64,000 bases of DNA, from assembly GCF_003019035.1 (NCBI RefSeq), contig NZ_CP027447.1; one strand, given 5' to 3'. This document shows positions 2,281-20,100 of the stretch, one piece after another. Origin of the DNA: Escherichia coli (lineage in GTDB: Bacteria; Pseudomonadota; Gammaproteobacteria; Enterobacterales; Enterobacteriaceae). How positions within the stretch are numbered: the first letter of the stretch is position 1; each line of letters starts with the position of its first letter. The notes beneath the pieces are model-generated. The model ran no database searches. It had not been told where the DNA came from and worked only from the letters and a program-made list of their open reading frames with translations. A program made the translations under genes and the position numbers.

Positions 2281-3876
<1,596 letters not shown>

Positions 3877-7759: not shown

Positions 7760-8122
7760 GGGGCTGATTCTGGATTCGACGGGATTTGCGAAACCCAAGG
7801 TGCATGCCGAGGGGCGGTTGGCCTCGTAAAAAGCCGCAAAAAATAGTCGCAAACGACGAAAACTACGCTTTAGCAGCTTAATAACCTGCTTAGAGCCCTC
7901 TCTCCCTAGCCTCCGCTCTTAGGACGGGGATCAAGAGAGGTCAAACCCAAAAGAGATCGCGTGGAAGCCCTGCCTGGGGTTGAAGCGTTAAAACTTAATC
8001 AGGCTAGTTTGTTAGTGGCGTGTCCGTCCGCAGCTGGCAAGCGAATGTAAAGACTGACTAAGCATGTAGTACCGAGGATGTAGGAATTTCGGACGCGGGT
8101 TCAACTCCCGCCAGCTCCACCA
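7760..8122 (+). ncRNA. ssrA: tmRNA (SsrA, 10Sa RNA)
   Basis: 363 nt from GGGGCTGATTCTGGATTCGACGGG to GGTTCAACTCCCGCCAGCTCCACCA; contains the tag-peptide ORF region (GCAAACGACGAAAACTACGCTTTAGCAGCTTAA) and a tRNA-like 3' end. Confidence 0.95.
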
Positions 8123-8158
8123 CTTTTTAGTAAAATGACGTCTACTAAAGTCTACTAA

Positions 8159-8190
8159 GGCCGCATACCACAAGGGTTTGCGGCCTTTTT
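8159..8190 (+). terminator. rho-independent terminator downstream of ssrA
   Basis: Hairpin GGCCGCA-taccacaagggtt-TGCGGCC followed by TTTTT. Confidence 0.6.
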
Positions 8191-8289
8191 CATGTCCAGT
8201 GAAGTCTACTGAGAATTGCTAGAAACCACTCCTTATGGCACCCTCCTATTATCCCTCGTCGATGAGGGAGTAAAAACGAGGGAGCAAAA

Positions 8290-9522
8290 ATGCCAAAGGT
8301 AGCAACAAAACTCACTGACACAGAGATCAAAAAGGCCAAGCCCACAGAGAAAGAGTTCACGCTATGGGATGGAGATGGCTTGTTCCTGCGCATCAAACCA
8401 AGTGGCAAAAAAATCTGGCACCTCGGCTATACCGTTCCATTAACCAAGAAACGGGCCAAAATGAGTCTTGGGTTCTATCCCTACCTGACACTTGCTCAAG
8501 CAAGAGCGCTACGGGATGAATACCTCTCTTTGCTTGCACAGGGTATCGATCCCCAATCCCACAATGAGCAAAAAGCCCAAGCGCTTAAAGATGCCACTGA
8601 ACACACATTCCAGACTGTAGCGAAAAAATGGCTTGATGAAAAAATTAAAACATCAGGCATATCGCAAGATCATGCTAAGGATATCTGGCGTAGCCTTGAA
8701 CGGAACATCTTTCCTACTTTAGGGGATGTTCCCATTAAAGAGATCCGCCCTAAAATGTTAAAACAACACCTTGACCCCATAGAACAAAGGGGCGTACTCG
8801 AAACCTTGCGACGTATAATTTCCCGACTTAATGAAATTTTCCGCTATGCCGCGACAGAAGAACTCATTGAGTTCAACCCCGCTGACAACCTTATCCAACG
8901 TTTTAGTAAACCCAAAAAGCAAAATATGCCTGCGTTGCCGCCAGATGAACTACCCCGTTTCATGACAGCATTATCAAACGCATCTATACGCTTAGAAACA
9001 CGTCTACTAATTGAATGGCAACTTCTTACTTGGGTTCGTCCCGGTGAAGCTGTACGCGCTCGCTGGACTGACATAGACGAAGAAAGCAAGTATTGGAACA
9101 TTCCATCCGATTTCATGAAGATGAAACGTCCTCATAAGGTTCCATTGAGCAAAGAAGCTATACGTATTCTTGAATCCATGAAACCAATCAGCGGTCATCG
9201 TGAGTGGGTTTTCCCCAGCATAAAAAATCCTTTAACACATATGCACGAGCAAACTGCCAACGCCGCATTAATCCGAATGGGCTTAGGTGGAGAACTCGTA
9301 GCACATGGCATGCGTTCTATTGCAAGAACAGCAGCAGAAGAAGCAGGAAAATTTAGGACAGAAGTTCTTGAAGCGGCTCTCGCCCACTCAAAAAAAGATG
9401 AAATCATTGCTGCTTATAACCGTACAGAATATTTAGTCGAGCGTGTCGAGTTAATGCAATGGTGGAGTGATTATCTCCAAATACAAAAATATAAGTCTTT
9501 AACAACTCTGATCGCCAGCTAA
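8290..9522 (+). CDS. P4-family tyrosine integrase (IntA-like, but not the CP4-57 IntA sequence)
   Basis: 410 aa; N-terminal LTDTEIKKAKP...LWDGDGLFLRIKPSGKK arm-binding-type domain typical of P4-like integrases; C-terminal AHGMRSIARTAAEE...LAHS catalytic region; sits immediately 3' of ssrA. Confidence 0.85.
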   Translation: MPKVATKLTDTEIKKAKPTEKEFTLWDGDGLFLRIKPSGKKIWHLGYTVPLTKKRAKMSLGFYPYLTLAQARALRDEYLSLLAQGIDPQSHNEQKAQALKDATEHTFQTVAKKWLDEKIKTSGISQDHAKDIWRSLERNIFPTLGDVPIKEIRPKMLKQHLDPIEQRGVLETLRRIISRLNEIFRYAATEELIEFNPADNLIQRFSKPKKQNMPALPPDELPRFMTALSNASIRLETRLLIEWQLLTWVRPGEAVRARWTDIDEESKYWNIPSDFMKMKRPHKVPLSKEAIRILESMKPISGHREWVFPSIKNPLTHMHEQTANAALIRMGLGGELVAHGMRSIARTAAEEAGKFRTEVLEAALAHSKKDEIIAAYNRTEYLVERVELMQWWSDYLQIQKYKSLTTLIAS

Positions 9523-9679
9523 TCCTACAATCAACCCAATATCAGAAGCTGGCTTTAGTAGGGATACTTCCATTTTTCTGATATTGTATTACCATGTAGC
9601 TGAAAGTCAGATACCAAGTAGAAAAACACATTTTTATGTATGCTTTATCGAATAAAACATTAACCAAATAGGGGGACTA

Positions 9680-10399
9680 ATGGAAGATTTAGTTTGTAGT
9701 TGGTCACCAAAGCTGATCGTTGATCTTATAAAAAGTATCGCTTGGCCAGTAGTCGTCCTTCTCATCGGCTTCAGTTTTCGAACTCGAATTTTTGAAGTGG
9801 CACGTTCATTTTTTTCTAAAAACACAGTTTCAGAAATATCAGCTACAGTATCAGGTGTATCGGCAAAATTTGTGACAGCAAAGCAAACAACTGAAGTATT
9901 AGAAAGTGCTAGTACCAATGCAGCGAATTTACCAAAGAGTATGAGTATTGAGGCTATAAGAGCGCGACATGAACAGCATAAAACAGAATTCAGCGAAGAG
10001 TTATATCAATCAATAATTAAACATGCTTCCTCTTTAGATATTAATAATGATGAAAAAGTCAAAATTCTGGCACGTGAATTGTCTATTTATCAAGCTATAA
10101 TACGATATATTGACATTAATAAGATATTATTTCGCTCACAATACAATTTATTTTGTTCTATAAATAGTAATGGTGGTCAAATAAATAAAGAAGACGCCAA
10201 TCTTTTTTTTGAGGCGACCAAGAACAACAATAAAGAAGCATTCTCCGATTGGGATTGGATTAAATATATTGCCTATCCTGTTAGTAATAGCCTTATCTAT
10301 GAAGATAATAATTTTTATAAACTTACAGAGTTGGGAAGATCGTATATAGCTTTTATGTCAAAAAATCCACAACTAATCGACGAACTTGCAAAATTATAG
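9680..10399 (+). CDS. hypothetical membrane-anchored protein (island cargo)
   Basis: 239-aa ORF, AT-rich codon usage, one N-terminal hydrophobic segment (IAWPVVVLLIGFSF); no recognisable family motif. Confidence 0.5.
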   Translation: MEDLVCSWSPKLIVDLIKSIAWPVVVLLIGFSFRTRIFEVARSFFSKNTVSEISATVSGVSAKFVTAKQTTEVLESASTNAANLPKSMSIEAIRARHEQHKTEFSEELYQSIIKHASSLDINNDEKVKILARELSIYQAIIRYIDINKILFRSQYNLFCSINSNGGQINKEDANLFFEATKNNNKEAFSDWDWIKYIAYPVSNSLIYEDNNFYKLTELGRSYIAFMSKNPQLIDELAKL

Positions 10400-10629
10400 T
10401 AGGGAATAATATTAAACCCTACTCAATGACTGTTTCAGATCTTGGTTCTGTATCCCATAAATGATCAGGTAAAGTCTAAGCGAATAGCGTTTAACAGGTG
10501 GGATGACTCACTACGTGAACCACCCACCTATAAAAAGGGTTTTTCTTCTGGTGAGTTGTCAATAAAAATGAAGGTTTCCACCTTTCATGCGGACCCTCCT
10601 TAATTTTTTTTGACAAGTTGAGATCGAGA

Positions 10630-11082
10630 CTATTTATCATTACGTTTTTTCATAAAATATTTATAACGTTCATCAGCTTCTTTTTGAAACTTTTCAGCGT
10701 CAAACGTATCAGTTTCTATTTTTATTTTTTGTTTTACCGCTTCATCTAATCTTTTATTTTCTTTCAATCTTTCTTTTTCTACTAATATAAGTTTATAGTA
10801 TTTTAGCTTAATATTAAAACTTGCTTTTGCTAACTCCTTAGCGTCAAAACCTATATTGTATTTTTTAAGAAGTTTCAATATATAATCTATAGTCATTTTT
10901 TTCACTTCCTTTTTTATTTTTTCTTCATGCGCATCTTTTTTTATACTCCCACTTTTTAACCATTGCTTAAATTTATAGCCATTATAATGCTGCCATTGAT
11001 ATATTTCAGCGGCATACATCACCGACAACATACAAACAATAAAAAATACAACCATAAAAACCACACATATTAAATAATACAT
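10630..11082 (-). CDS. hypothetical membrane-anchored Lys-rich coiled-coil protein (last gene of operon)
   Basis: 150 aa; N-terminal TM helix (YYLICVVFMVVFFIVCMLSVMY) followed by a charged helical region; 1-nt gap to the upstream ORF. Confidence 0.5.
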   Translation of the reverse strand: MYYLICVVFMVVFFIVCMLSVMYAAEIYQWQHYNGYKFKQWLKSGSIKKDAHEEKIKKEVKKMTIDYILKLLKKYNIGFDAKELAKASFNIKLKYYKLILVEKERLKENKRLDEAVKQKIKIETDTFDAEKFQKEADERYKYFMKKRNDK

Positions 11083-11083
11083 A

Positions 11084-11320
11084 TCAGCCCCCGCCTTTCC
11101 TTCTATATTGTTCTTTTATTAATGCTACGTGATATTTTTTTGCGTTGCTTATACTTACATCAGCAGAGTTTCTAGCAGAAGCAAAAGCACTTGAAACAAC
11201 AGAAGCAATAATGGCAACTAAGAAAGCAGCAACAAAAAAACCCATCACTGGCCCCATAAAACTAGCCCCACCGTCATCTATTGCTGGTTTTGCTTTTGCT
11301 AATAATGATAATAGGCTCAT
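11084..11320 (-). CDS. hypothetical small membrane protein
   Basis: 78 aa; central hydrophobic segment PVMGFFVAAFLVAIIASVVSSAF; basic Gly-rich C-terminus. Confidence 0.5.
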   Translation of the reverse strand: MSLLSLLAKAKPAIDDGGASFMGPVMGFFVAAFLVAIIASVVSSAFASARNSADVSISNAKKYHVALIKEQYRRKGGG

Positions 11321-11730
11321 ATATTTCTCTCTTCTTCAATGTTTTTAATCGCTGTTTCTATTCTTTGTTTTACAAAGTCTCTAAACACATAACCTATTAT
11401 TCGCGCGTCTTCACATATATCTAACTCATCTTTTTTATGAAAATATAAATCAGCGCTTAAAAGCTCTTCGCTTTGAATATTTAACATTTTACTAGCAAGT
11501 GATATTCTAATAATATTTCGCACTTCTAAATCCAAGCTTGCTCTATCATGCTTATTCAAAAGCTGGAGCGGATGAAAATCTTTTTTTCTTTTCATTTCTT
11601 GCATATCATTATCAAAATCTATCATTAAAAAATGTAAGCAAGTAAAAGACGTATCATAGAAGTTTAAGCGGTTCATCATATCCGCCGTTCCCTCTTTTCG
11701 AGGGTTCGGGTTAGGTCTTAATTTATTCAT
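11317..11730 (-). CDS. hypothetical protein
   Basis: 137 aa; no recognisable motif; 4-nt overlap with the downstream ORF. Confidence 0.5.
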   Translation of the reverse strand: MNKLRPNPNPRKEGTADMMNRLNFYDTSFTCLHFLMIDFDNDMQEMKRKKDFHPLQLLNKHDRASLDLEVRNIIRISLASKMLNIQSEELLSADLYFHKKDELDICEDARIIGYVFRDFVKQRIETAIKNIEEERNI

Positions 11731-12064
11731 CTGCTTTACTCCTTTTCTTGTTGTTTTTTAGCTTCCATTCATTCAATCTTTTATCGCCTTCAACTTTTAA
11801 GAACTCACGCTGATCGTGTATTCTTTTCAGTATTAGATTATTAGTTAACGCTCCTACTAACAAAGAAATATCATTCGCAAAATCTAATGTCTCGATGTTA
11901 TTTTCTCTAACTATTCTTATTAGTTCAGCGCCGGCTTTTATTTTACGTGTCGTATCTTTTTTCCTTTCTTCTGCCTTCATTTCTTGCTCCATTCTATTCA
12001 ATAAGTTTGCTCTTTGCTCAATTTCTTTTTTTAATTTATTATATTTTTCTATATTAAACGCCAT
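11723..12064 (-). CDS. hypothetical coiled-coil, Lys/Glu-rich protein
   Basis: 113 aa; highly charged helical sequence; overlaps neighbours (12064/12054, 11730/11723). Confidence 0.5.
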   Translation of the reverse strand: MAFNIEKYNKLKKEIEQRANLLNRMEQEMKAEERKKDTTRKIKAGAELIRIVRENNIETLDFANDISLLVGALTNNLILKRIHDQREFLKVEGDKRLNEWKLKNNKKRSKADE

Positions 12065-12383
12065 TTTCTGAACCTCTCTTTTCTTTTATCGTAATAAAAA
12101 AGGCAATCAACCCACTGATCAATAAAATTGGTAAAGTTAAAATAAACCCTACCAATAACACTAATGAAAATCCGAGCACGCCGGACATCTCATATAGATT
12201 TCCGAACAATGTGCTTTCGTTTTTATACTCAACCATATTCTGTAAAACAGACCTTTTTTCAATATCTTTTTCTTTTAAAGAATCTTCTCTATATTCATAA
12301 TCTTCACAACTCAAAGAAATTTCCACAGTGTTATCATTCAAATACTCATTATCATAATAGTCGTAATCATTATTCCCAATCAT
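12054..12383 (-). CDS. hypothetical membrane protein with acidic Tyr/Asp-rich N-terminus and C-terminal TM segment
   Basis: 109 aa; hydrophobic stretch GVLGFSLVLLVGFILTLPILLISGLIAFFI; overlapping stop/start with both neighbours. Confidence 0.5.
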   Translation of the reverse strand: MIGNNDYDYYDNEYLNDNTVEISLSCEDYEYREDSLKEKDIEKRSVLQNMVEYKNESTLFGNLYEMSGVLGFSLVLLVGFILTLPILLISGLIAFFITIKEKRGSENGV

Positions 12384-12565
12384 TCTAGATCTCCTTCTAA
12401 CGTGTCATAAACAACAGTAAAATCATTCTCATGAGAAAGAAGATTGTAAGTTATAAATAAGCTTGTCCTATAAACAATATCTGTATTTTCATCCTGTAGT
12501 TTTTGAATAATCAACTTAACAAGATCAGACGCTGCCACTTCAATTTTTTTATCAATATCATTCAT
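12380..12565 (-). CDS. hypothetical small protein (first gene of six-gene island operon)
   Basis: 61-aa ORF; stop overlaps the start of the next ORF (12383/12380); divergent from mobA. Confidence 0.45.
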   Translation of the reverse strand: MNDIDKKIEVAASDLVKLIIQKLQDENTDIVYRTSLFITYNLLSHENDFTVVYDTLEGDLE

Positions 12566-12729
12566 GTTCCACCTCTTTTATTTTTTATGATTTCTGTTAT
12601 ATATATTAAGTAATATAATTATTTATTTAAGTAAAGCGCGATATATATTTTTTTGTTTTTAGAACGCATTTTTCAGATAAAAGGCTCACGTGCGGCGGCT
12701 ATTTTAGTTTTGCTAAAAACTACAATAGC

Positions 12730-12762
12730 GCACTTATACATTCTTCGAATGTGTGCGCCCCA
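12730..12762 (+). other. candidate MobQ-type origin of transfer (inverted repeat plus nick-site-like GTGCGCCC)
   Basis: ACATTC-ttcg-GAATGT inverted repeat immediately followed by GTGCGCCC, resembling the RSF1010 oriT arrangement (inverted repeat then TAAGTGCG/CCCT nick region); about 140 bp upstream of mobA. Confidence 0.45.
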
Positions 12763-12901
12763 TAAATGGGGGTTTACTAACGCAGAAAAATAAAAAGTAA
12801 TATTCGCTTTATGCTCAATATTACTTAATCGCTTTTCAAAAAAGCAAATATATTTTTATTATTTTAAAAAGTATGTGTTTCAATATCAGGAGATAAAAAC
12901 A

Positions 12902-14203
12902 ATGGCAATATTTCATATGAGCGCTCAAACAATAACACGCAGCAAGGGGTATAGTAGCGTAGCTGCGGCAGCTTATCGCCACGGCGAAAAGTTAACGGAC
13001 GAACACACAGGAGAGATCCACGACTACAGCAAAAAGAAAGGTGTTTCAGACAGTGTTATATTAATACCTGAAAGCGCAGACCGTAATTTTTTAAAGCCTG
13101 CGTATTTATGGAACATGATAGAAAAAAGCGAAAAAAGAAAAGATGCGCAGTTAGCTCGCGAGTTTAATATTGCGCTTCCTGTCGAAATGACAGATGAACA
13201 AAAAAAGGCGTTAGCAATAGATTTTTGCCAAGAGCATTTTGTAAAAAATGGAATGATTGCTGATATAGCTTTTCACAAGCTCGATAGCGACAACCCACAT
13301 TTTCATGTAATGCTAACCACCCGCAGCCTTACGCCGGACGGTTCAGAGTTCGGACATAAAGTCAGGGAATGGAACAACAAAGAGCAGCTCGAAGGCTGGC
13401 GCAAGAGCTGGGCTGACACAGCGAACGAGCACATGCAAAAGGCTGGCATCGATGCGCATATAGATCACAGATCACTGAAAGAACAAAAAGCAGAGCTTGA
13501 CGCTATCCTCCCCCCTCTCAGAACGATTGAGCAAGAGGCGCAGGCTATCAGCTTAGACAGACCGCCGACTATCCATAGAGGCCATAGCCGCAATCCAGAG
13601 CGACAAGCACGCTTTGACGTGCTCCAAGAAGTGAAAGTATCACAAGAGGAAAAAGCACTTAACCACATTGAACAGAAACAACTTAAGCCCTCGCCGCTGG
13701 CTCCAGCTTCCTCCCCTGCCGCATCTTTGCAAGATGCTACACAAGGAGGCAATGAAAACAACCCGCAAAATAGACTCGGCGAAGTTGGCGAATATCTTCA
13801 ATCTAAACTCAATAAAGAAGATAAAGCAGATCTTAATACTGATAATGAAATCAAAGTTCACACTACTAAAAATAATAGGGAAAGCAGTTCAGCAGCAGCT
13901 ATAGGTTCAACATCAAATATTAATTTAACCGATGAGAAAACAGATAAGAATCTACACTTAACAGAAGCACAAAAAGAAGAGTTAGAGGATTTAGAAAATA
14001 AAGAAGCAGCAGCGAAGAAAAAAGCTTATCTGATGAGCGGAGCTGCCGTTCCTGAACTTTCTCAAGATTACAAAACACTGTCAAAAAGTGAGTTTAAAAA
14101 TAAGCTTCATACAGCTAAACAATCAATATCATTAACTGAAAAGAGATTTAATGAAGAATGTGAAGCATATGATAACAGAAGAAAACGACCAATACCGCGC
14201 TAA
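12902..14203 (+). CDS. mobA: MobA/MobL-family (MobQ-type) conjugative relaxase
   Basis: N-terminus MAIFHMSAQTITRSKGYSSVAAAAYRHGEKL is the characteristic MobA/MobL signature; HFHVML histidine motif present; Ser/Glu/Lys-rich low-complexity C-terminus; AGGAG RBS 8 nt upstream of ATG 12902. Confidence 0.8.
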   Translation: MAIFHMSAQTITRSKGYSSVAAAAYRHGEKLTDEHTGEIHDYSKKKGVSDSVILIPESADRNFLKPAYLWNMIEKSEKRKDAQLAREFNIALPVEMTDEQKKALAIDFCQEHFVKNGMIADIAFHKLDSDNPHFHVMLTTRSLTPDGSEFGHKVREWNNKEQLEGWRKSWADTANEHMQKAGIDAHIDHRSLKEQKAELDAILPPLRTIEQEAQAISLDRPPTIHRGHSRNPERQARFDVLQEVKVSQEEKALNHIEQKQLKPSPLAPASSPAASLQDATQGGNENNPQNRLGEVGEYLQSKLNKEDKADLNTDNEIKVHTTKNNRESSSAAAIGSTSNINLTDEKTDKNLHLTEAQKEELEDLENKEAAAKKKAYLMSGAAVPELSQDYKTLSKSEFKNKLHTAKQSISLTEKRFNEECEAYDNRRKRPIPR

Positions 14204-14563
14204 GTATTTTGCTCATTTTTTATCCCCAATGAATGACTTAGCGTTATATTTACTTTAACTAATTGATACTATTGATTTATTTTCACCTCACGTCGTATCG
14301 TTTATATCGATCAAAATCGACAAAGTGATAGTTAACACCTATCACAACCAATTCATCGATCGATTAAAACAATTAATACACCGATCGATAAACGAGATTT
14401 AATCGTTAAAAACTATCAATATTAAATAATTGATCTGTTATAACGATCATTTTGCTTGAGAGTAGCCCTCCTCATGGTATGCTCGGAGCGTGGAAGACCG
14501 GGCTACTCACCTTGATATCTTCTTGATTAAGCAAAACTATCGCTCTATGAGGAATGAAATTTT

Positions 14564-15058
14564 ATGAAAACCGAAAACATTATTTTTCTTGTTTGGGCAG
14601 TGATTTTTATCCTGATTCTCTGCCAACTTTTTTATTTTGGCCCTAAAAAAAGAAGATACCTCAATACTTATATAGAGGTATTAGATGGTGATGTCCTCTC
14701 ATATGAATGTCAAAATACCGGCGTAGTTATTGATACTAAAAAAAACACAGTACGTATTTTCAATACATATAAGGACAGCACTTTCAAATACGACAACATC
14801 AGGGAAATAAATTATACGCTATCCGAAGCCGGAAAAATTTATAGCACAAGTAATAATCTAAACTCTATGATAAAGTCCGCTGGAGCTAACAGTAATGAAC
14901 AAATGTTAGCTAATCAGCGTTCCGGTATTTTTATACTGACAGATGATATAAAAAATCCTTCATGGAAAATCAATCTACCAATGAAAAACAAAACATCATC
15001 TACCAATCAGGAGATCTGCGATCGATGGCTTCTCATTTTTAAAAAATACGTTTTATAA
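14564..15058 (+). CDS. hypothetical membrane-anchored protein
   Basis: 164 aa; N-terminal hydrophobic helix IIFLVWAVIFILILCQLFYF; AT-rich; no recognisable motif. Confidence 0.5.
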   Translation: MKTENIIFLVWAVIFILILCQLFYFGPKKRRYLNTYIEVLDGDVLSYECQNTGVVIDTKKNTVRIFNTYKDSTFKYDNIREINYTLSEAGKIYSTSNNLNSMIKSAGANSNEQMLANQRSGIFILTDDIKNPSWKINLPMKNKTSSTNQEICDRWLLIFKKYVL

Positions 15059-15090
15059 CTTTGTTTTTTATTTTTATCTTTGGAGTTGAC

Positions 15091-15468
15091 ATGAAAAAAT
15101 TGATTGCGGCAGCATTTATTATTCTCCCTTTAGCAAGTTGTACTGTTTATGGAAACAAATCCATTAAAGACGAAACGCAGCAAAATATAGCCTCTAAAAT
15201 TATAAAAGGTAAAACTACTCAAAAAGATATCCTTCAACTTTATGGAGAACCTCAGACTAAAGAAACTAACGATGGTAAAGAAATGTGGGGATATTCCGTT
15301 ATGTCCGGTGAATCTCAGATTTCAAATTACATACCGGGATTAGCGTTATTGAAGAATAGCAGCACAGCGCACATGAAAGAACTTGAGATCTTGTTTAAAG
15401 GTGATGTAGTTGAACGCTATACCTTTAGACAAACGGCAAGCAAAGCTTCTCGCGGGTTGTTAGATTAA
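15091..15468 (+). CDS. putative lipoprotein
   Basis: Start chosen at ATG 15091 (GGAG RBS upstream); signal peptide MKKLIAAAFIILPLASC with lipobox L-A-S-C; 125 aa. Confidence 0.55.
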   Translation: MKKLIAAAFIILPLASCTVYGNKSIKDETQQNIASKIIKGKTTQKDILQLYGEPQTKETNDGKEMWGYSVMSGESQISNYIPGLALLKNSSTAHMKELEILFKGDVVERYTFRQTASKASRGLLD

Positions 15469-16469
15469 TTTAAATTAAATACCATTTTATCTTTAAAAAG
15501 AAGTTGGAATAGTCCGACTTCTTTTCTATTTTATCAATAACATGCATTATTTATATTAGTGCCTTATGAAATGGCACCTTACTTTTTATATTTCCCTATC
15601 TGGGGGTTTAACCTTTGTTTTTTATTAAAAAAAATTTTGTACTAGTAGTACTAATTAATTAATTTAAAAATTTTTGGTTTTAAGGTTTTGGGGTTTGTGT
15701 TTTAGCGGGGCGGCTTTCAGCCGTAGTAGTTTTCCTCCGAAGGAGGAAATAGTTTTTCTTTAAGCATTCCCCCCCTACCCCCCACGCCAAAAAGGCTAAA
15801 AAAGAGAGATAGGAGATGCTCATTGCGTCTTGAAAATATTCAGAACGTTTCCATTCTGATACTTCCCCCACGACCCACGCAAACACAAATCATGAAACTT
15901 TCAAACAACTCTCGTTTTACTAAAGAGTCTATGCTACTGTTTGTAAATTTTTTAGATTGTGCGATTCAGGTTGGCAGCTACGCATATCCCGGTTAACCGC
16001 TGCCGCAATATTCTAAGTTTCACCAAACACTCGATGTCCTTCGTACTTAGACCTTGATACAACAAGGGTAATATTATATTGCTTTTGTAGATTAAATGTT
16101 TCTGGAAATGGTATTGACATTTTATCTATGTCAAAGTCGGCGAAATTTGTTTAATCATGCAGATTAGAGGCTTCTGGAAGTGGTATTTAATATTAGTTAA
16201 AAGTCGACGAAGCATTTCTAATCTTTTGTATCTTTATATTATATAAATCTATATATAACACCAGTCAATAGATGAAATCAAAAATATTTTAAAAACATGA
16301 CTAGATGAAAAACAAAAAAAGACCAGATTAAACCCCAGTCTCTTTTTTACTTAATATCAGTTATGTTTTTCATATATAGTTCTAAAACGCTCTGTACGCG
16401 ATTTTGAGACGTTTTACACTGGAAGCGGCGTAATCATATAAATAATAAAATAGAATACTGTAATGATTT

Positions 16470-16685
16470 TTATGCCGCTTGATTACGCGAATAAAAAATC
16501 TTATCATCAATCCATTCGTCAACTTCACTTTCAACAAATGCGATAGTTCTTTCACCAGTCTTGATCGGAGAAGGGAAATCACCCCGGCTAATCAGCCGAT
16601 AGATCCACGCTTTACAAAAACCAGTCTTGTTTAACACTTCGGGTATGCGGATAAGTCTTTTTCTTTCGTTCATATATTTCCTCAT
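16470..16685 (-). CDS. AlpA-family phage-type transcriptional regulator / excisionase-like DNA-binding protein
   Basis: 71-aa ORF; RIPEVLNKTGFCKAWIYRLISRGDFPSP resembles the AlpA/Xis helix-turn-helix region. Confidence 0.7.
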   Translation of the reverse strand: MRKYMNERKRLIRIPEVLNKTGFCKAWIYRLISRGDFPSPIKTGERTIAFVESEVDEWIDDKIFYSRNQAA

Positions 16686-17133
16686 AGTTGTTTTGATGAG
16701 GCTATTATTCGAATATCGCTTATGACGATCAACAACTTTTTTAGCAAAAAGTGCTTTTTTAGTTGACTATTTTAAATTAACAGTCATTTAATCACCTTTG
16801 GAAGTTGAACTCATGAGTTCAACTCCTCACCGCTAGTCATGACATTCAAAATGTGCTTATTTTTTAGCCACAATACTTTTTTTATCCCTTTATTGCACCT
16901 CAATGTAAAATACAAATAATTAATATATTTAATAATCAAATGATTAAAGAGTCGATTACAGGGACGCCAGCCAATCATGATTGGACGGTGTAAGGACAAC
17001 ACTAATAAAAACAGGAAGTTAGCAGTCTCAGCAGGACACCGACCAGACGGTGAGGAGACATAAAAGGATACGCAAAGGAGCCGCGGCCCCTGGTGATATG
17101 AAAGCCCACAGATGTGGGCTTTTTCGTTGATGG

Positions 17134-20100
17134 TCAGAACGACCAGTTCACACCAGCCACTGCGTTCCACGGGGATTCCACACCGGCACCATGGCTATAC
17201 CCCACCCCGAGATGCCCGCTTAACGAACTGCTGAATGAGGCTTTAATACCTGCCTGGTATATTCCACGTCTGCCCGACAAATCATTGACAAAATTACCGT
17301 CATTATTCACTTTCACCCGGTTATCATCGACAAATTCTTTGCGCACAGCCGCCTTCAGCCACGGCTCAACTTCCATGCCGTTCCCCAGACGCATGTTGTA
17401 ACTCAGCGTTGCGCCCAGTTCACGATATATACTGCGGGTATCGACTGATTTCGATTCCATGCCATTGGATAAATGATATTCGGGGTTATCAGCGGTGAAC
17501 CCCGTTAACGATGCATACGGCGTCAGGTTCCAGTTACCATCGGTAAATCGCATCCCGGTTTCAATGTGACCGCCCAGCCCGTTGCTGCGATAACTGCCGT
17601 TGGCGGCTCCACCGCTGCTCATTTTACCGGCTACGTTACTTTCAAAGCGGTTCAGCTTCACGATACCGTCCAGATAGAAACCACTTTCATGTTCCCAGCT
17701 GGCATAGCCCCCCAGAGAATAACTGCCCACACTGCCATGTCCTCCACGATCAAAACCGATATGTGAATGGGAATAACCCATAAAAGCGCCCAGCGTCGCA
17801 ATCCCCTCAGGAATATCATTACGGCTATCGATCCCCACCGTCATTCCGGTCAGCGTCTGCTCAAACCCGGCACCCGCATCGGTGGTGACATTATTACGGG
17901 TGTTATACGTCGTCCCCCAGACATTATTGTTGTGTGGACTCGCTTTCATTATGTTCAACCGCTCGCGAATACTGTTTAGCTCAGCATCAAAGACCAACGG
18001 TAATGTTGCTGCCATATTGAGTACGGCTGCCGTAGAAGGCGTGATGCGTTTCTCCGGGACGGGTGTCGGCGTTGGATCGGGAGTCGGGTCTGGTTTCGGA
18101 TCCGGTTTTGGGTCTGGTTTTGGATCCGGCTTCGGATTTGGGTTGGGGTCCGGGTTGGGTTTGACATCATTGGTCAGGTTCCAGTTGCTGTTGCCGTCGC
18201 TTTTCAGGACATACTCATAGGTCCCAAGATCAACGAAACCGCCGGTATTACCCAGCGTAAACGAAGCATCCCCTCCCCCTGTTTTCACCAGCGTCATCGC
18301 GTCGTCAGACTGAGGGCTGACGCCGGTATCCTGAACAAAGATTTTAAAATTACCAGTGGCGTTGTTGTTGACGACCAGTTGATCGCCCCGGGAGCCTGCA
18401 ACGTTGGTATGCAGGTAGAAATTACCGCTGCCGGAAAGTTCACTGGTTGTCAGCGTATTGTAGATACCGTTAGTTGTGGCAGGCGCTGCTGTTTGTGCTG
18501 ATAAATAAACATCACCGTCGTTGAGGAGCAAACTGTTTACTCTATATTCGCAGTTGCTGGTACCTGCACAGGAATTATTGCTGTTAAGCCAGACACTGCC
18601 CCGGCTGGCAGCCGTCAGGTCGGTAAGCGTCGTATCGACGCCATTTCCGATAGTTAATGTCGCGCTATCGGTAATCCGGATCGCCCCTTCGAGTTTAACT
18701 GGCGTAACATTATCCCGTGGCGTCATTAACGACAGGCTTCCTGTCGCGCCACTGACCGATGCATCCGCCAGCGTACCTGCATAGACGATTGCCGTCCCGC
18801 CAGCGACCTGGAGATCTTCTGCCCGGGCCAGAGCCTGAAACTCATCTTTTGACCGCCCAAGGGTATATTGCCCGCCAGAGTTAACCTTTGTGGCGGAGTC
18901 CTGACCCAGGTTTTGCATTGCACCACCCTTGCCAACCTTGGAGTCACGGGCTTCGGTACCTGCTAATACCAATAAATTACCGCCATTTTCCAGCAGCACA
19001 TTGGTCGCTAAATTGCCGGCAATGGAAAAGGTGCCGTACTGGTGAGTACCGCTGATTTCAATACCGTTAGCCGTGCTCGTCTGGAGAGCGGCACCGCTGT
19101 TCTGGACGATATCTGTCGCTTTGCCATTATCGTTGACTGTCAGCGTACCGCCTTCATTGATCGTTGTTTTTATTGCCTCTCCGTTAGCCGAAACTGTTTG
19201 TATTCCGCCGTCGTTAATCGTTGTCTCATTCGCCACACCCTCGACGATTTGTTCGCCGCCGGTGAGCGTCGTGCCTGTCGCAGTGGCTTTTGTTTTGACG
19301 ATCTCCCGCCCGCCCGCATTGACCTGTGTTTTGACGGAAGAGGTGTCTGACTCCACGGTTAACACGCCGCCATTTGTCAGCAGGATATTGTTCGCCGCAC
19401 CCTGCTCGATGCTGAACGCGACGCCATCAGCGCGTGTCCCTGTGACCCGCGTCGCCCTGGTGGTTGCAACCAACGCGCCCTGGCTACTTTGCTGTATCCC
19501 CGTTGCGCTGCCTTTCTCCCGCACATCGAGTGTGCCGCCGTCATTAAGCACCGAGTTTTCAGCCAGACCGCCCTCATTAACTACCTGTGAACCGCCATTA
19601 ATAATGGAACCTTCCGCTGTCCCGTTTACCATAATTTGTTGTAGGCCAGAGACGATATCGGTATTGATCGCCTTACCATAATTCTGAACGGTTTGCGTAC
19701 CGCCATTGATGTGCGTTTTGTCTGTTGACCCACCATCAACAATTTGTTCACCACTTTCGATATTTGCCTCAGTGGCTAAACCATATACCGTTTGCTTGCC
19801 ACCTTTGATATTTGCTTTATCAGAAGTGGCACTGGCATATATTGTTTGGGTACCCGCACTATTGAGTACAGTGCCAACATCTTTTCCATAAACATCCATT
19901 TTACCGTTGGCATTAATAATCGTATCAACTGCCCGGGAACCAGTAACGACTGTTAATGAGCCAGCGTTTTCCAGCACTACATTTTTAGCTTCTGAATTCC
20001 TGATGTAGAAAGCATCACCATAACTGTTGGTTCCTTCGATAAGTGTTCCGGAAGTCGTGGAAGCAATTAATGCGCCGCCGGATTGTTGCTCAACATGCTT

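What the first reader, a model, noticed from the sequence alone, without database searches (positions are those of the whole stretch)
16795..16835. Perfect 22-bp palindrome overlapping a partial ssrA 3'-end match at the putative right island junction
AGTTGAACTCATGAGTTCAACT (16803-16824) is a perfect palindrome centred on CATG, and its right half plus two bases (GTTCAACTCC, 16818-16827) matches the T-arm sequence of tmRNA, GGTTCAACTCC. It lies about 120 bp upstream of the alpA-like gene on the minus strand and about 300 bp from the ypjA 3' end. It could be a degraded attR core that became a dyad operator for the AlpA-like protein or integrase.
Basis: seen in the sequence. Interest (0 to 1): 0.4.

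Follow-up and report, generated by a model that had tools for sequence, protein, structure and literature searches.

The report
Integrase-arm palindrome inside ssrA island
The 22-bp palindrome is real, but it is not the island's right junction: it lies about 150 bp inside the island, at the outer edge of the recombination-site arm, and is most likely a pair of inverted protein-binding sites used when the island integrates or excises.

Summary
**Observation: confirmed.** AGTTGAACTCATGAGTTCAACT at 16803-16824 is a perfect palindrome and the longest in the window.

**Interpretation: partly supported.** The palindrome is not the junction. Comparison with an empty-site E. coli genome puts attR at 16958-16973 (ACAGGGACGCCAGCCA). 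Chromosomal DNA starts at 16974, about 150 bp to the right.

**Related islands.** I collected islands by their attR core alone.
- 17 of 24 non-redundant arms carry the half-site AGTTCA(A/G)CTnC(C/T) at -135 to -180 from the core.
- The half-site occurs singly or as an inverted pair, in either orientation.
- Its position follows the core, not alpA, whose start lies from -272 to -8422.
- It is present in islands that lack mobQ.
- In one metagenome relative, homology to the window starts exactly at the palindrome's left edge.

**Link to the other arm.** A related motif, AAGT(C/T)(T/C)A, is repeated 3-4 times in the integrase-side arm. There AGTTCAG and CGTCTAC replace each other at the same position in close relatives.

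**Best reading.** The palindrome is a distal pair of inverted arm-type integrase sites, like lambda P1. The AlpA-like excision factor is the alternative binder. No binding was tested.

**Unexplained.** The motif copies the ssrA T-arm in both orientations.

The parts
16803..16824 (.). Perfect 22-bp palindrome: two inverted copies of the arm motif (left AGTTGAACTC, right GAGTTCAACT). It is the outermost conserved element of the island's alpA-side att arm (P arm).
   Evidence: Invariant in all class-A relatives found: L002, L005, L006, L045, L057, L071. Homology between the window and L045 begins at GGAA plus the palindrome.
16814..16829 (+). Right half-site with its conserved extension, TGAGTTCAACTCCTCA. 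This is the copy shared with islands that have a single site (Enterobacter, Brenneria, Yersinia). It contains the 10-nt ssrA T-arm identity at 16817-16826.
16800..16812 (-). Left half-site, GGAAGTTGAACTC. It corresponds in position and sequence to the right arm of the wider dyads (for example GGAAGTTGAACC in EDL933 and GGGAGTTGAACTG in metagenome arms).
16884..16904 (+). Second conserved arm block, ATCCCTTTATTGCACCTCAAT. It is a degenerate form of the dyad GGTTCC-N5-GGAACC / ...ATTGAACCC found about 65-85 bp from the core in related arms.
16934..16946 (+). IHF-consensus-like site AATCAAATGATTA (WATCAANNNNTTR), conserved in position in most related arms.
   Evidence: This is a consensus match only; binding was not tested.
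16958..16973 (+). True attR core, ACAGGGACGCCAGCCA. The pseudo-ssrA 3' end CGCCAGCCA (16965-16973) lacks CCCA relative to the usual CGCCAGCCCACCA. Chromosomal flank starts at 16974.
8097..8122 (+). attL core: the ssrA 3' end GGGTTCAACTCCCGCCAGCTCCACCA. Its T-arm GGTTCAACTCCC fits the arm-motif consensus at 11 of 12 positions.
8140..8156 (+). Integrase-side (P') arm: two adjacent direct repeats GTCTACTAAA / GTCTACTAAG.
8204..8210 (+). Third P' arm repeat, GTCTACT (within GAAGTCTACTGAG).
8159..8190 (+). GC-rich hairpin plus T-run between the P' repeats. It is probably the island-supplied terminator for ssrA and would block read-through from the arm into int.
   Evidence: (I19); function inferred
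8290..9522 (+). P4-family tyrosine integrase with an N-terminal arm-DNA-binding domain; 49% identical to K-12 IntA.
16470..16685 (-). AlpA-family (PF05930) small DNA-binding protein, the candidate excision factor.
16704..16732 (-). Candidate alpA promoter (TTGATC, 17 nt, AATAAT). It lies 71 bp from the palindrome.
   Evidence: The promoter sequence is conserved upstream of alpA in L008-L012, L014 and L017.

Best explanation
**What it is.** The palindrome is the distal element of the island's attachment-site arm (the P arm of attP, now part of attR). It consists of two inverted copies of a ~12-bp motif, AGTTCA(A/G)CTnC(C/T). ssrA-targeting P4-family islands keep this motif about 150 bp from the crossover core.

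[quoted passage not shown] The layout would parallel phage lambda:
- this pair at about -150 (like lambda P1);
- a second GAAC-type block at about -65 to -85;
- an IHF-like site at about -30;
- three direct repeats on the integrase side.

Together these would let integrase molecules bridge arm and core and build the complex that inserts the 8.85-kb island into ssrA or removes it.

**Shown:**
- the position of the true junction;
- conservation of the motif and its fixed distance from the core;
- its independence from alpA and from mobQ;
- related motifs on both arms;
- an arm-binding domain in the integrase.

**Inferred:** which protein binds, and the role in recombination. Given that it is an arm site, I put the integrase at about 0.55, the AlpA-like factor at about 0.25, and another factor or both at about 0.2.
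For: **True junction.** Comparison with the empty site puts it at 16973|16974.

**Conservation in an unbiased sample.** I collected arms by the attR core alone.
- 31 of 43 arms have GTTCAAC or GTTGAAC at -141 to -172.
- Among 24 non-redundant arms, 17 have AGTTCA or TGAACT in -180..-135.
- There are 27 hits in the -180..-121 bins against 2 in the other 6576 positions.
- The consensus comes from 29 sites.

**Position follows the core, not alpA.** The alpA start ranges from -272 to -8422.

**Module boundary.** L045 is more than 95% identical to the window from the palindrome's left edge to the core and unrelated beyond it. No alpA lies in the roughly 1 kb of L045 sequence held beyond the palindrome.

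**Independent of mobQ.** The motif is present in the complete islands L010 and L021, which have no mobQ.

**Not coding.** Reading frames are broken between close relatives.

**Integrase.** It has the arm-binding domain PF13356.

**Both arms carry related motifs.** The integrase-side arm has 3-4 direct repeats of RAAGTCTACT. In islands whose integrase is 82-83% identical, GAAGTTCAGT occupies the position of GACGTCTACT. So the two motifs are variants of one site type present on both arms.

**Positional equivalence in tRNA-Phe islands.** These have GTYYACT repeats at -130 to -165 in the same arm.

**IHF-like site.** A consensus match lies between the motif and the core.
Against: - No binding data exist for this island family. 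None was found in the searched literature.
- The P-arm motif (AGTTCAACT) and the commonest P' motif (AGTCTACT) differ in length by one base when fully aligned. One protein for both is therefore not certain.
- The mapped sites of the excision factor TorI in prophage KplE1 (GTTCG, GATCG and GTCCG per PMC2951348; seen in the K-12 attL sequence as CAGTTCGCT and similar) look very like CAGTTCA. That favours the AlpA-like protein.
- K-12 CP4-57 has no AGTTCA at -150.
- Several arms with the same core lack the motif at that position: L022, L032, L033, L047, L051 and L040.
- Within the window's own lineage, invariance of the 22 bp is not significant on its own. At 91% identity the chance of 22 unchanged positions is about 0.13.
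Confidence: 0.65

Rival explanations
1. The palindrome is a pair of binding sites for the AlpA-like excision factor. The factor would bend the attR arm to drive excision, as lambda Xis does in the P arm and TorI does in KplE1.
For: - An AlpA-family gene is the nearest or a near gene inside this arm in every island with enough sequence.
- TorI's mapped motif (GTTCG/GATCG/GTCCG per PMC2951348; CAGTTCGCT and similar in the K-12 sequence) matches the most conserved part of the half-site, (C/G)AGTTCA, at 6 of 7 positions.
- The AlpA-like protein aligns weakly with the TorI structure 1z4h over the helix-turn-helix (E=0.52).
- The site is in the arm where lambda places its Xis sites (established knowledge).
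Against: - The motif family occurs on both arms, which is typical of integrase arm sites and not of excision-factor sites.
- It is the outermost element of the arm. Known excision-factor sites lie between the core and the outer integrase sites.
- The copies are inverted with variable spacing (6, 12-13 or 16 nt) or single, unlike the phased direct repeats of Xis and TorI.
- TorI is not a Pfam AlpA member.
Confidence: 0.18
2. One reading: the palindrome marks the right island junction and is a decayed attR copy of the ssrA 3' end.
For: There is a 10-nt identity to the ssrA T-arm. A match of 10 nt or more arose in only 2 of 2000 shuffled controls.
Against: - Empty-site and K-12 comparisons put attR at 16958-16973.
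- The DNA between the palindrome and that core is conserved arm sequence in many lineages.
- Similarity to ssrA ends after 10 nt.
- The T-arm-like sequence is inverted relative to the core in classes D, E and F.
Confidence: 0.03
3. The palindrome is a transcriptional operator controlling the alpA promoter (autoregulation or a host repressor).
For: It is a perfect dyad 118 bp upstream of alpA. AlpA-family proteins are DNA-binding regulators.
Against: - It lies 71 bp beyond the candidate -35.
- In relatives the motif stays near the core while alpA moves from 0.27 to 8.4 kb away.
- L045 has the palindrome with no alpA within the ~1 kb of sequence held beyond it.
- A different dyad (AGCAAAAAGTGCT, 16743-16755) is the element that travels with alpA.
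Confidence: 0.07
4. The palindrome is the origin of transfer (oriT) recognised by the island's MobQ relaxase, or it is a non-functional chance or relic palindrome.
For: MobQ-type oriT sites contain an inverted repeat, and the island is mobilisable in design. A 22-bp palindrome arose in 3 of 200 shuffles.
Against: - The motif is kept in whole islands without mobQ: L010 and L021.
- A better inverted repeat lies just upstream of mobQ at 12698-12729.
- Positional conservation across about 17 non-redundant arms argues against chance.
Confidence: 0.07

Closest known systems
Phage lambda attP arm-type sites (P1, P2 | P'1-P'3) with IHF sites
   Same: - A heterobivalent tyrosine integrase with an N-terminal arm-binding domain.
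- An att site of about 270 bp.
- An outermost site about 150 bp from the core, an IHF-consensus site next to the core, and three repeats on the integrase side.
- The P' motif AAGTCTACT even resembles lambda's CAGTCACTAT.
   Different: - Here the distal site is an inverted pair (in this lineage a perfect palindrome) rather than a single site.
- Orientation and spacing vary between lineages.
- The motif copies the target gene's T-arm.
- Binding has not been tested.
KplE1 (CPS-53) attL: IntS arm sites and five TorI sites (PMC2951348)
   Same: - An island-type integrase at a tRNA-type gene, with its own promoter inside the att arm.
- A small winged-helix excision factor.
- The factor's mapped motif (GTTCG; CAGTTCG in the K-12 sequence) is almost the same as the half-site CAGTTCA.
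   Different: - TorI sites are phased direct repeats on the integrase-side arm, between the core and the integrase arm sites.
- The palindrome is on the other arm, outermost and inverted.
- TorI is not in Pfam's AlpA family.
ICEMlSymR7A attP (PMC11963761)
   Same: A P4-family integrase with a 283-bp attP carrying five arm-type sites, all needed for integration, plus a winged-helix excision factor that binds within attP.
   Different: The arm consensus there is TGKTGGTATC. The excision factor has no clear motif, and the paper's model places its binding on the attL (integrase-side) arm.
CP4-57 attR (psaA) of E. coli K-12, and CP4So of Shewanella
   Same: - The same target (the ssrA 3' end).
- The same kind of integrase (49% identity).
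- The same damaged pseudo-ssrA at attR.
- In CP4So, AlpA is needed for excision, and excision leaves a mutated ssrA (PMC5148205).
   Different: - The K-12 arm has a different core-proximal sequence (CAGACTCCGCCAG) and no AGTTCA pair at -150.
- Its alpA is at the integrase end.

Membership tests
attR/attL crossover core of an ssrA-integrated island | Lies at the boundary between island DNA and DNA present at the unoccupied site | tested here: not met
   The empty-site genome L001 joins ssrA directly to the sequence that starts at window 16974. The palindrome is about 150 bp inside the island.
attR/attL crossover core of an ssrA-integrated island | Direct repeat of the block shared with attL (CGCCAGC(T)CCACCA) | tested here: not met
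   The palindrome shares only the T-arm 10-mer, which lies outside that block. The repeat itself is at 16965-16973.
Arm-type integrase sites of a heterobivalent tyrosine integrase attP | Conserved motif at a fixed distance from the core, within the roughly 150-200 bp arms | tested here: met
   17 of 24 non-redundant arms have the motif at -135..-180. There are 27 hits in the -180..-121 bins against 2 in 6576 other positions.
Arm-type integrase sites of a heterobivalent tyrosine integrase attP | Copies of the same motif on both arms (P and P') | tested here: inconclusive
   P' has RAAGTCTACT three or four times. In close relatives GAAGTTCAGT replaces GACGTCTACT at the same P' position, which links the two motifs. 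The commonest forms differ by an indel, and no GTYYACT occurs in the P arms.
Arm-type integrase sites of a heterobivalent tyrosine integrase attP | The integrase carries an N-terminal arm-DNA-binding domain | tested here: met
   PF13356 at residues 8-94, E=1.9e-25.
Arm-type integrase sites of a heterobivalent tyrosine integrase attP | Bound by the integrase N-domain and required for recombination | not testable with these tools
   Needs EMSA or footprinting and mini-island recombination assays.
Excision-factor (RDF) binding sites (lambda Xis, TorI type) | Phased direct repeats on one arm, between the core and the outer integrase sites | tested here: not met
   The copies are inverted or single with variable spacing. 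The element is outermost in the arm. Related motifs occur on both arms.
Excision-factor (RDF) binding sites (lambda Xis, TorI type) | A cognate small winged-helix factor is encoded by the element, and the motif resembles a mapped site | tested here: met
   An AlpA-family gene is present. TorI motif GTTCG (CAGTTCG in the K-12 sequence) versus CAGTTCA. This is a resemblance only; binding is untested.
Operator of the alpA promoter | Overlaps or adjoins the promoter and travels with the gene in relatives | tested here: not met
   It lies 71 bp beyond the candidate -35. Its distance to alpA varies from 0.1 to more than 8 kb while its distance to the core is constant.
oriT of a MobQ relaxase | Co-occurs with the relaxase gene | tested here: not met
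   The motif is present in the complete islands L010 and L021, which have no MobQ homologue.
Intrinsic terminator | GC-rich hairpin followed by a T-run | tested here: not met
   No T-run follows on either strand, and the terminator scan does not list it. The DNA hairpin is -7.9 kcal/mol.

The most novel reading that the evidence does not exclude
The -150 element is a functional copy of the ssrA T-arm, which sits 2 bp from the crossover block in attB and attL. The same protein (integrase or the AlpA-like factor) would then recognise both the target gene's T-arm DNA and the arm copies. The arm would carry a mimic of the bacterial half-site, used for bridging, site capture or directionality control. 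That arrangement is not part of the lambda paradigm.

**Support:**
- The 12-bp consensus fits GGTTCAACTCCC at 11 of 12 positions.
- Exact matches of 8-11 nt occur in 17 non-redundant arms, in either orientation.
- Matches of 10 nt or more occurred in 2 of 2000 shuffled controls.

**Against:**
- tRNA-Phe islands with related AlpA proteins show no such mimicry.
- Shared ancestry of the arms inflates the count.
Probability: 0.15. Interest if true: 0.55.

Novelty: new member of a known kind. Interest (0 to 1): 0.33.

Why it matters
- **Boundary correction.** The island is 8123-16973 (8.85 kb), and the palindrome lies inside it.
- **A candidate att-site map.** This gives a sequence-level map for a widespread family of ssrA-targeting islands, for which I found no mapped sites in the searched literature. 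The map has a distal inverted site pair, a second block, an IHF-like site, the core, and three integrase-side repeats.
- **Use.** The map says which ~270 bp a mini-island would need. It also gives a short, testable site for integrase and AlpA binding.
- **Possible wider interest.** If the T-arm copy proves functional, it would show how such integrases tie arm recognition to their tRNA-like target.

Tried and rejected
- **Second copy of the ssrA 3' end.** None within 3 mismatches. Generic repeat finding across the island showed nothing at the palindrome.
- **Phage and plasmid BLAST of the arm.** The only real relative was a Yersinia record.
- **Rfam on 15400-17140.** Nothing near its threshold.
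- **Coding hypothesis for the wider dyads.** A 93-codon open frame exists in L025 and L029, but stops and frameshifts interrupt it in close relatives.
- **'Split core' model.** This supposes the T-arm piece was separated from the core by a ~140-bp insertion. I rejected it because the second block and the IHF-like site lie at comparable distances in the CP4-57-type arm, and because the copy is inverted in classes D-F.
- **Promoter reading from the arm across the core into int after circularisation.** Unlikely, because a terminator hairpin lies in the P' arm.
- **Literature searches for mapped AlpA or integrase sites in ssrA islands.** None found. The Williams 2003 tmRNA-gene paper is not held. 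PDB 8c3t (an AlpA-family protein) has no paper in the library.
- **A misreading corrected.** The sequence AAATTCTCCATCGG..., which I first took for a host flank in many metagenome loci, is the P' arm of CP4-57-type islands. Those loci are therefore tandem island arrays.

Full report
**Setting.** The window is E. coli chromosome. It contains ssrA (tmRNA, 7760-8122, + strand) and the autotransporter gene ypjA (17134-21831, - strand). Between them lies an island with:
- a P4-family integrase gene (8290-9522) whose product has an N-terminal arm-DNA-binding domain;
- several small hypothetical genes;
- a MobA/MobL (MobQ) relaxase gene (12875-14203);
- a DUF4755 gene;
- at the far end, an AlpA-family gene on the minus strand (16470-16685).

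The same island occurs in only 4 of 5426 complete E. coli genomes.

**The observation.** AGTTGAACTCATGAGTTCAACT at 16803-16824 is a perfect palindrome and the longest in the window. Shuffles that preserve block composition reached 22 bp in 3 of 200 trials. The right half shares GTTCAACTCC with the ssrA T-arm. The stated distances to alpA (118 bp) and to the ypjA stop (310 bp) are right.

**Where the junction really is.**
- Strain HS30-1 has no island. Its ssrA ends ...GCCAGCTCCACCA and runs straight into ATCATGATTGGACGG... and ypjA.
- In the window that flank begins at 16974 and is preceded by ...GATTACAGGGACGCCAGCCA.
- A sister island (Z1323CEC0004) has ...ACAGGGACGCCAGCCCACCA at the same place.
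- K-12 annotates the equivalent CCGCCAGCCCACCA as psaA, the ssrA-fragment pseudogene annotated at the CP4-57 right boundary.

So attR is at 16958-16973, here with a further 4-bp loss. The island spans 8123-16973.

**What surrounds it in relatives.** I collected arms without reference to the palindrome. I scanned viral and metagenome collections for the attR core ACAGGGAC(G/C)CCAGCCCACCA. I added loci found through the AlpA protein, the plasmid database and the integrase.
- 31 of 43 arms have GTTCAAC or GTTGAAC between -141 and -172 from the core.
- After removing near-duplicates, 17 of 24 arms have AGTTCA or TGAACT in -180..-135. There are 27 hits in the -180..-121 bins and 2 in the other 6576 positions.

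The arrangements fall into classes:
- **Class A:** the perfect palindrome (this window's lineage, also L045, L057, L071).
- **Class B:** a single CGTGAGTTCAACTCCTC (Enterobacter, Brenneria, Yersinia).
- **Classes C-F:** wider dyads such as GAGTTCAAC-N12-GCTGAACTG and CAGTTCAGC-N12-GTTGAACTG (including EDL933). Class C is the inverse of classes D-F, spacer included.

From 29 sites the half-site consensus is T(G/C)AGTTCA(A/G)CTnC(C/T). The stretch is not coding, because frames are broken between close relatives.

A MAFFT alignment of 15 arm lineages shows a common architecture:
- this distal element;
- a second dyad block at about -65 to -85 (GGTTCC-N5-GGAACC or ...ATTGAACCC; degenerate in the window at 16884-16904);
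- an IHF-consensus match next to the core (window 16934-16946);
- the core itself.

**What the element is tied to.** The alpA start lies at different distances from the core in different classes, while the motif stays at about -150:

| Class or locus | alpA start relative to core |
|---|---|
| A | -272 |
| B | about -500 |
| C | about -870 |
| D | about -1200 |
| E/F | about -1400 |
| other loci | down to -8422 |

- The metagenome locus L045 is more than 95% identical to the window from exactly GGAA plus the palindrome to the core. It is unrelated to the left, and no alpA lies in the roughly 1 kb held there. The palindrome is therefore the outer edge of a portable att-arm module.
- MobQ is absent from the complete islands L010 and L021, which keep the motif. 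A better inverted repeat sits just upstream of mobQ. The element is therefore not oriT.
- It has no T-run, so it is not a terminator.
- The element that does travel with alpA, including in tRNA-Phe islands, is a different dyad: AGCAAAAAGTGCT (16743-16755), just upstream of the candidate alpA promoter.

**Which protein?** On the integrase side, the arm after ssrA carries three to four direct repeats of RAAGTCTACT around a terminator hairpin. This resembles lambda's arm-type consensus CAGTCACTAT (established knowledge).
- In islands whose integrase is 82-83% identical, the first of these positions reads GAAGTTCAGT instead of GACGTCTACT. So AGTTCAG-type and GTCTAC-type sequences replace each other at one site.
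- In tRNA-Phe islands with related AlpA proteins, the alpA-side arm has three GTYYACT repeats at -130 to -165. They read GTTTAC/GTCTAC in one lineage and GTTCAC/GTTCAG in another.

Together these results point to one site family (AGTYYA...) present on both arms. That is the hallmark of integrase arm-type sites. It gives a lambda-like layout of two sites on one arm and three on the other.

A paper on the P4-family element ICEMlSymR7A states that its 283-bp attP has five arm-type sites, all required for integration (PMC11963761).

The main alternative is the AlpA-like excision factor.
- For it: TorI's mapped sites in KplE1 (GTTCG/GATCG/GTCCG per PMC2951348; CAGTTCGCT and similar in the K-12 sequence) are strikingly like CAGTTCA. 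The AlpA-like protein also aligns weakly with the TorI structure.
- Against it: TorI is not a Pfam AlpA member. Known excision-factor sites are phased direct repeats on one arm, inside the outer integrase sites.

I therefore favour the integrase, without binding data.

**An unexplained feature.** The half-site consensus fits the ssrA T-arm GGTTCAACTCCC at 11 of 12 positions. In attB and attL that T-arm lies 2 bp from the shared block. Exact matches of 8-11 nt occur in 17 non-redundant arms. They are in the ssrA orientation in classes A-C and inverted in classes D-F (an 11-mer, GTTCAACTCCC). Shuffled controls reached 10 nt in 2 of 2000 trials.
- A fossil of ssrA would not be inverted.
- A fossil would not be the only conserved stretch.
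- A split-core origin does not fit the arm alignment.
- tRNA-Phe islands show no equivalent mimicry.

Whether one protein reads both the target's T-arm and the arm copy remains open.

**Verdict.** The palindrome is real. It is not the junction. It is best explained as the distal pair of inverted recombination-protein sites in the island's att arm. This is an ordinary kind of element in a family where it had not been mapped, with a modestly intriguing resemblance to the target gene.

Noticed in passing
window 16965-16973: The attR pseudo-ssrA (CGCCAGCCA) has lost CCCA relative to the usual CGCCAGCCCACCA seen in the sister island L005 and in K-12 psaA. Other relatives show further variants (CGCCAGCACCA in L009; CGCCAGCCCA in L057 and L071). 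If the crossover is left of the loss, excision would leave a damaged ssrA 3' end.
   Followed up: partly
window 16971-16984: A 14-bp perfect palindrome, CCAATCATGATTGG, spans the CCA end of the ssrA fragment and the E. coli flank. It is also present at the empty site (L001). Like the 22-bp palindrome, it is centred on TCATGA.
   Followed up: no
window 8159-8190: A GC-rich hairpin plus T-run lies immediately after ssrA, between the integrase-side arm repeats. It is conserved in related islands and in K-12 CP4-57, and is probably an island-supplied ssrA terminator.
   Followed up: partly
window 16743-16755: The dyad AGCAAAAAGTGCT lies just upstream of the candidate alpA -35. It is conserved next to alpA in islands at ssrA and at tRNA-Phe sites (L008-L012, L014, L017). 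It is a likely regulator site for alpA.
   Followed up: partly
window 12698-12729: An inverted repeat with 14-nt arms (GCTATTTTAGTTTT / AAAACTACAATAGC, 93% complementary) lies about 150 bp upstream of mobQ. It is a candidate oriT.
   Followed up: no
window 15470-16470: About 1 kb has no convincing ORF and is unannotated in the RefSeq relatives. It contains a 30-nt direct repeat at 16086-16115 and 16158-16187 (83% identity, 72-bp spacing).
   Followed up: no
L010, L021, L024, L029, L034, L040, L041, L045-L051 (right of the attR core): In many loci the attR core abuts AAATTCTCCATCGG..., which is the integrase-side arm of CP4-57-type islands (K-12, L054 457-590). These are tandem arrays of two ssrA islands. 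L045 has an IntA-like integrase gene right after it.
   Followed up: partly
L009, about 3250-3265 (roughly -115 from the core): Class C arms carry another perfect 14-bp palindrome, GTTTGACGTCAAAC, between the distal dyad and the second block.
   Followed up: no
L007 about 1038-1050 (K-12 CP4-57 arm, roughly -130 from the core): GAGACTCCCGCTG shares the 8-mer ACTCCCGC with the ssrA T-stem. By itself this could be chance (expected about 0.1).
   Followed up: no
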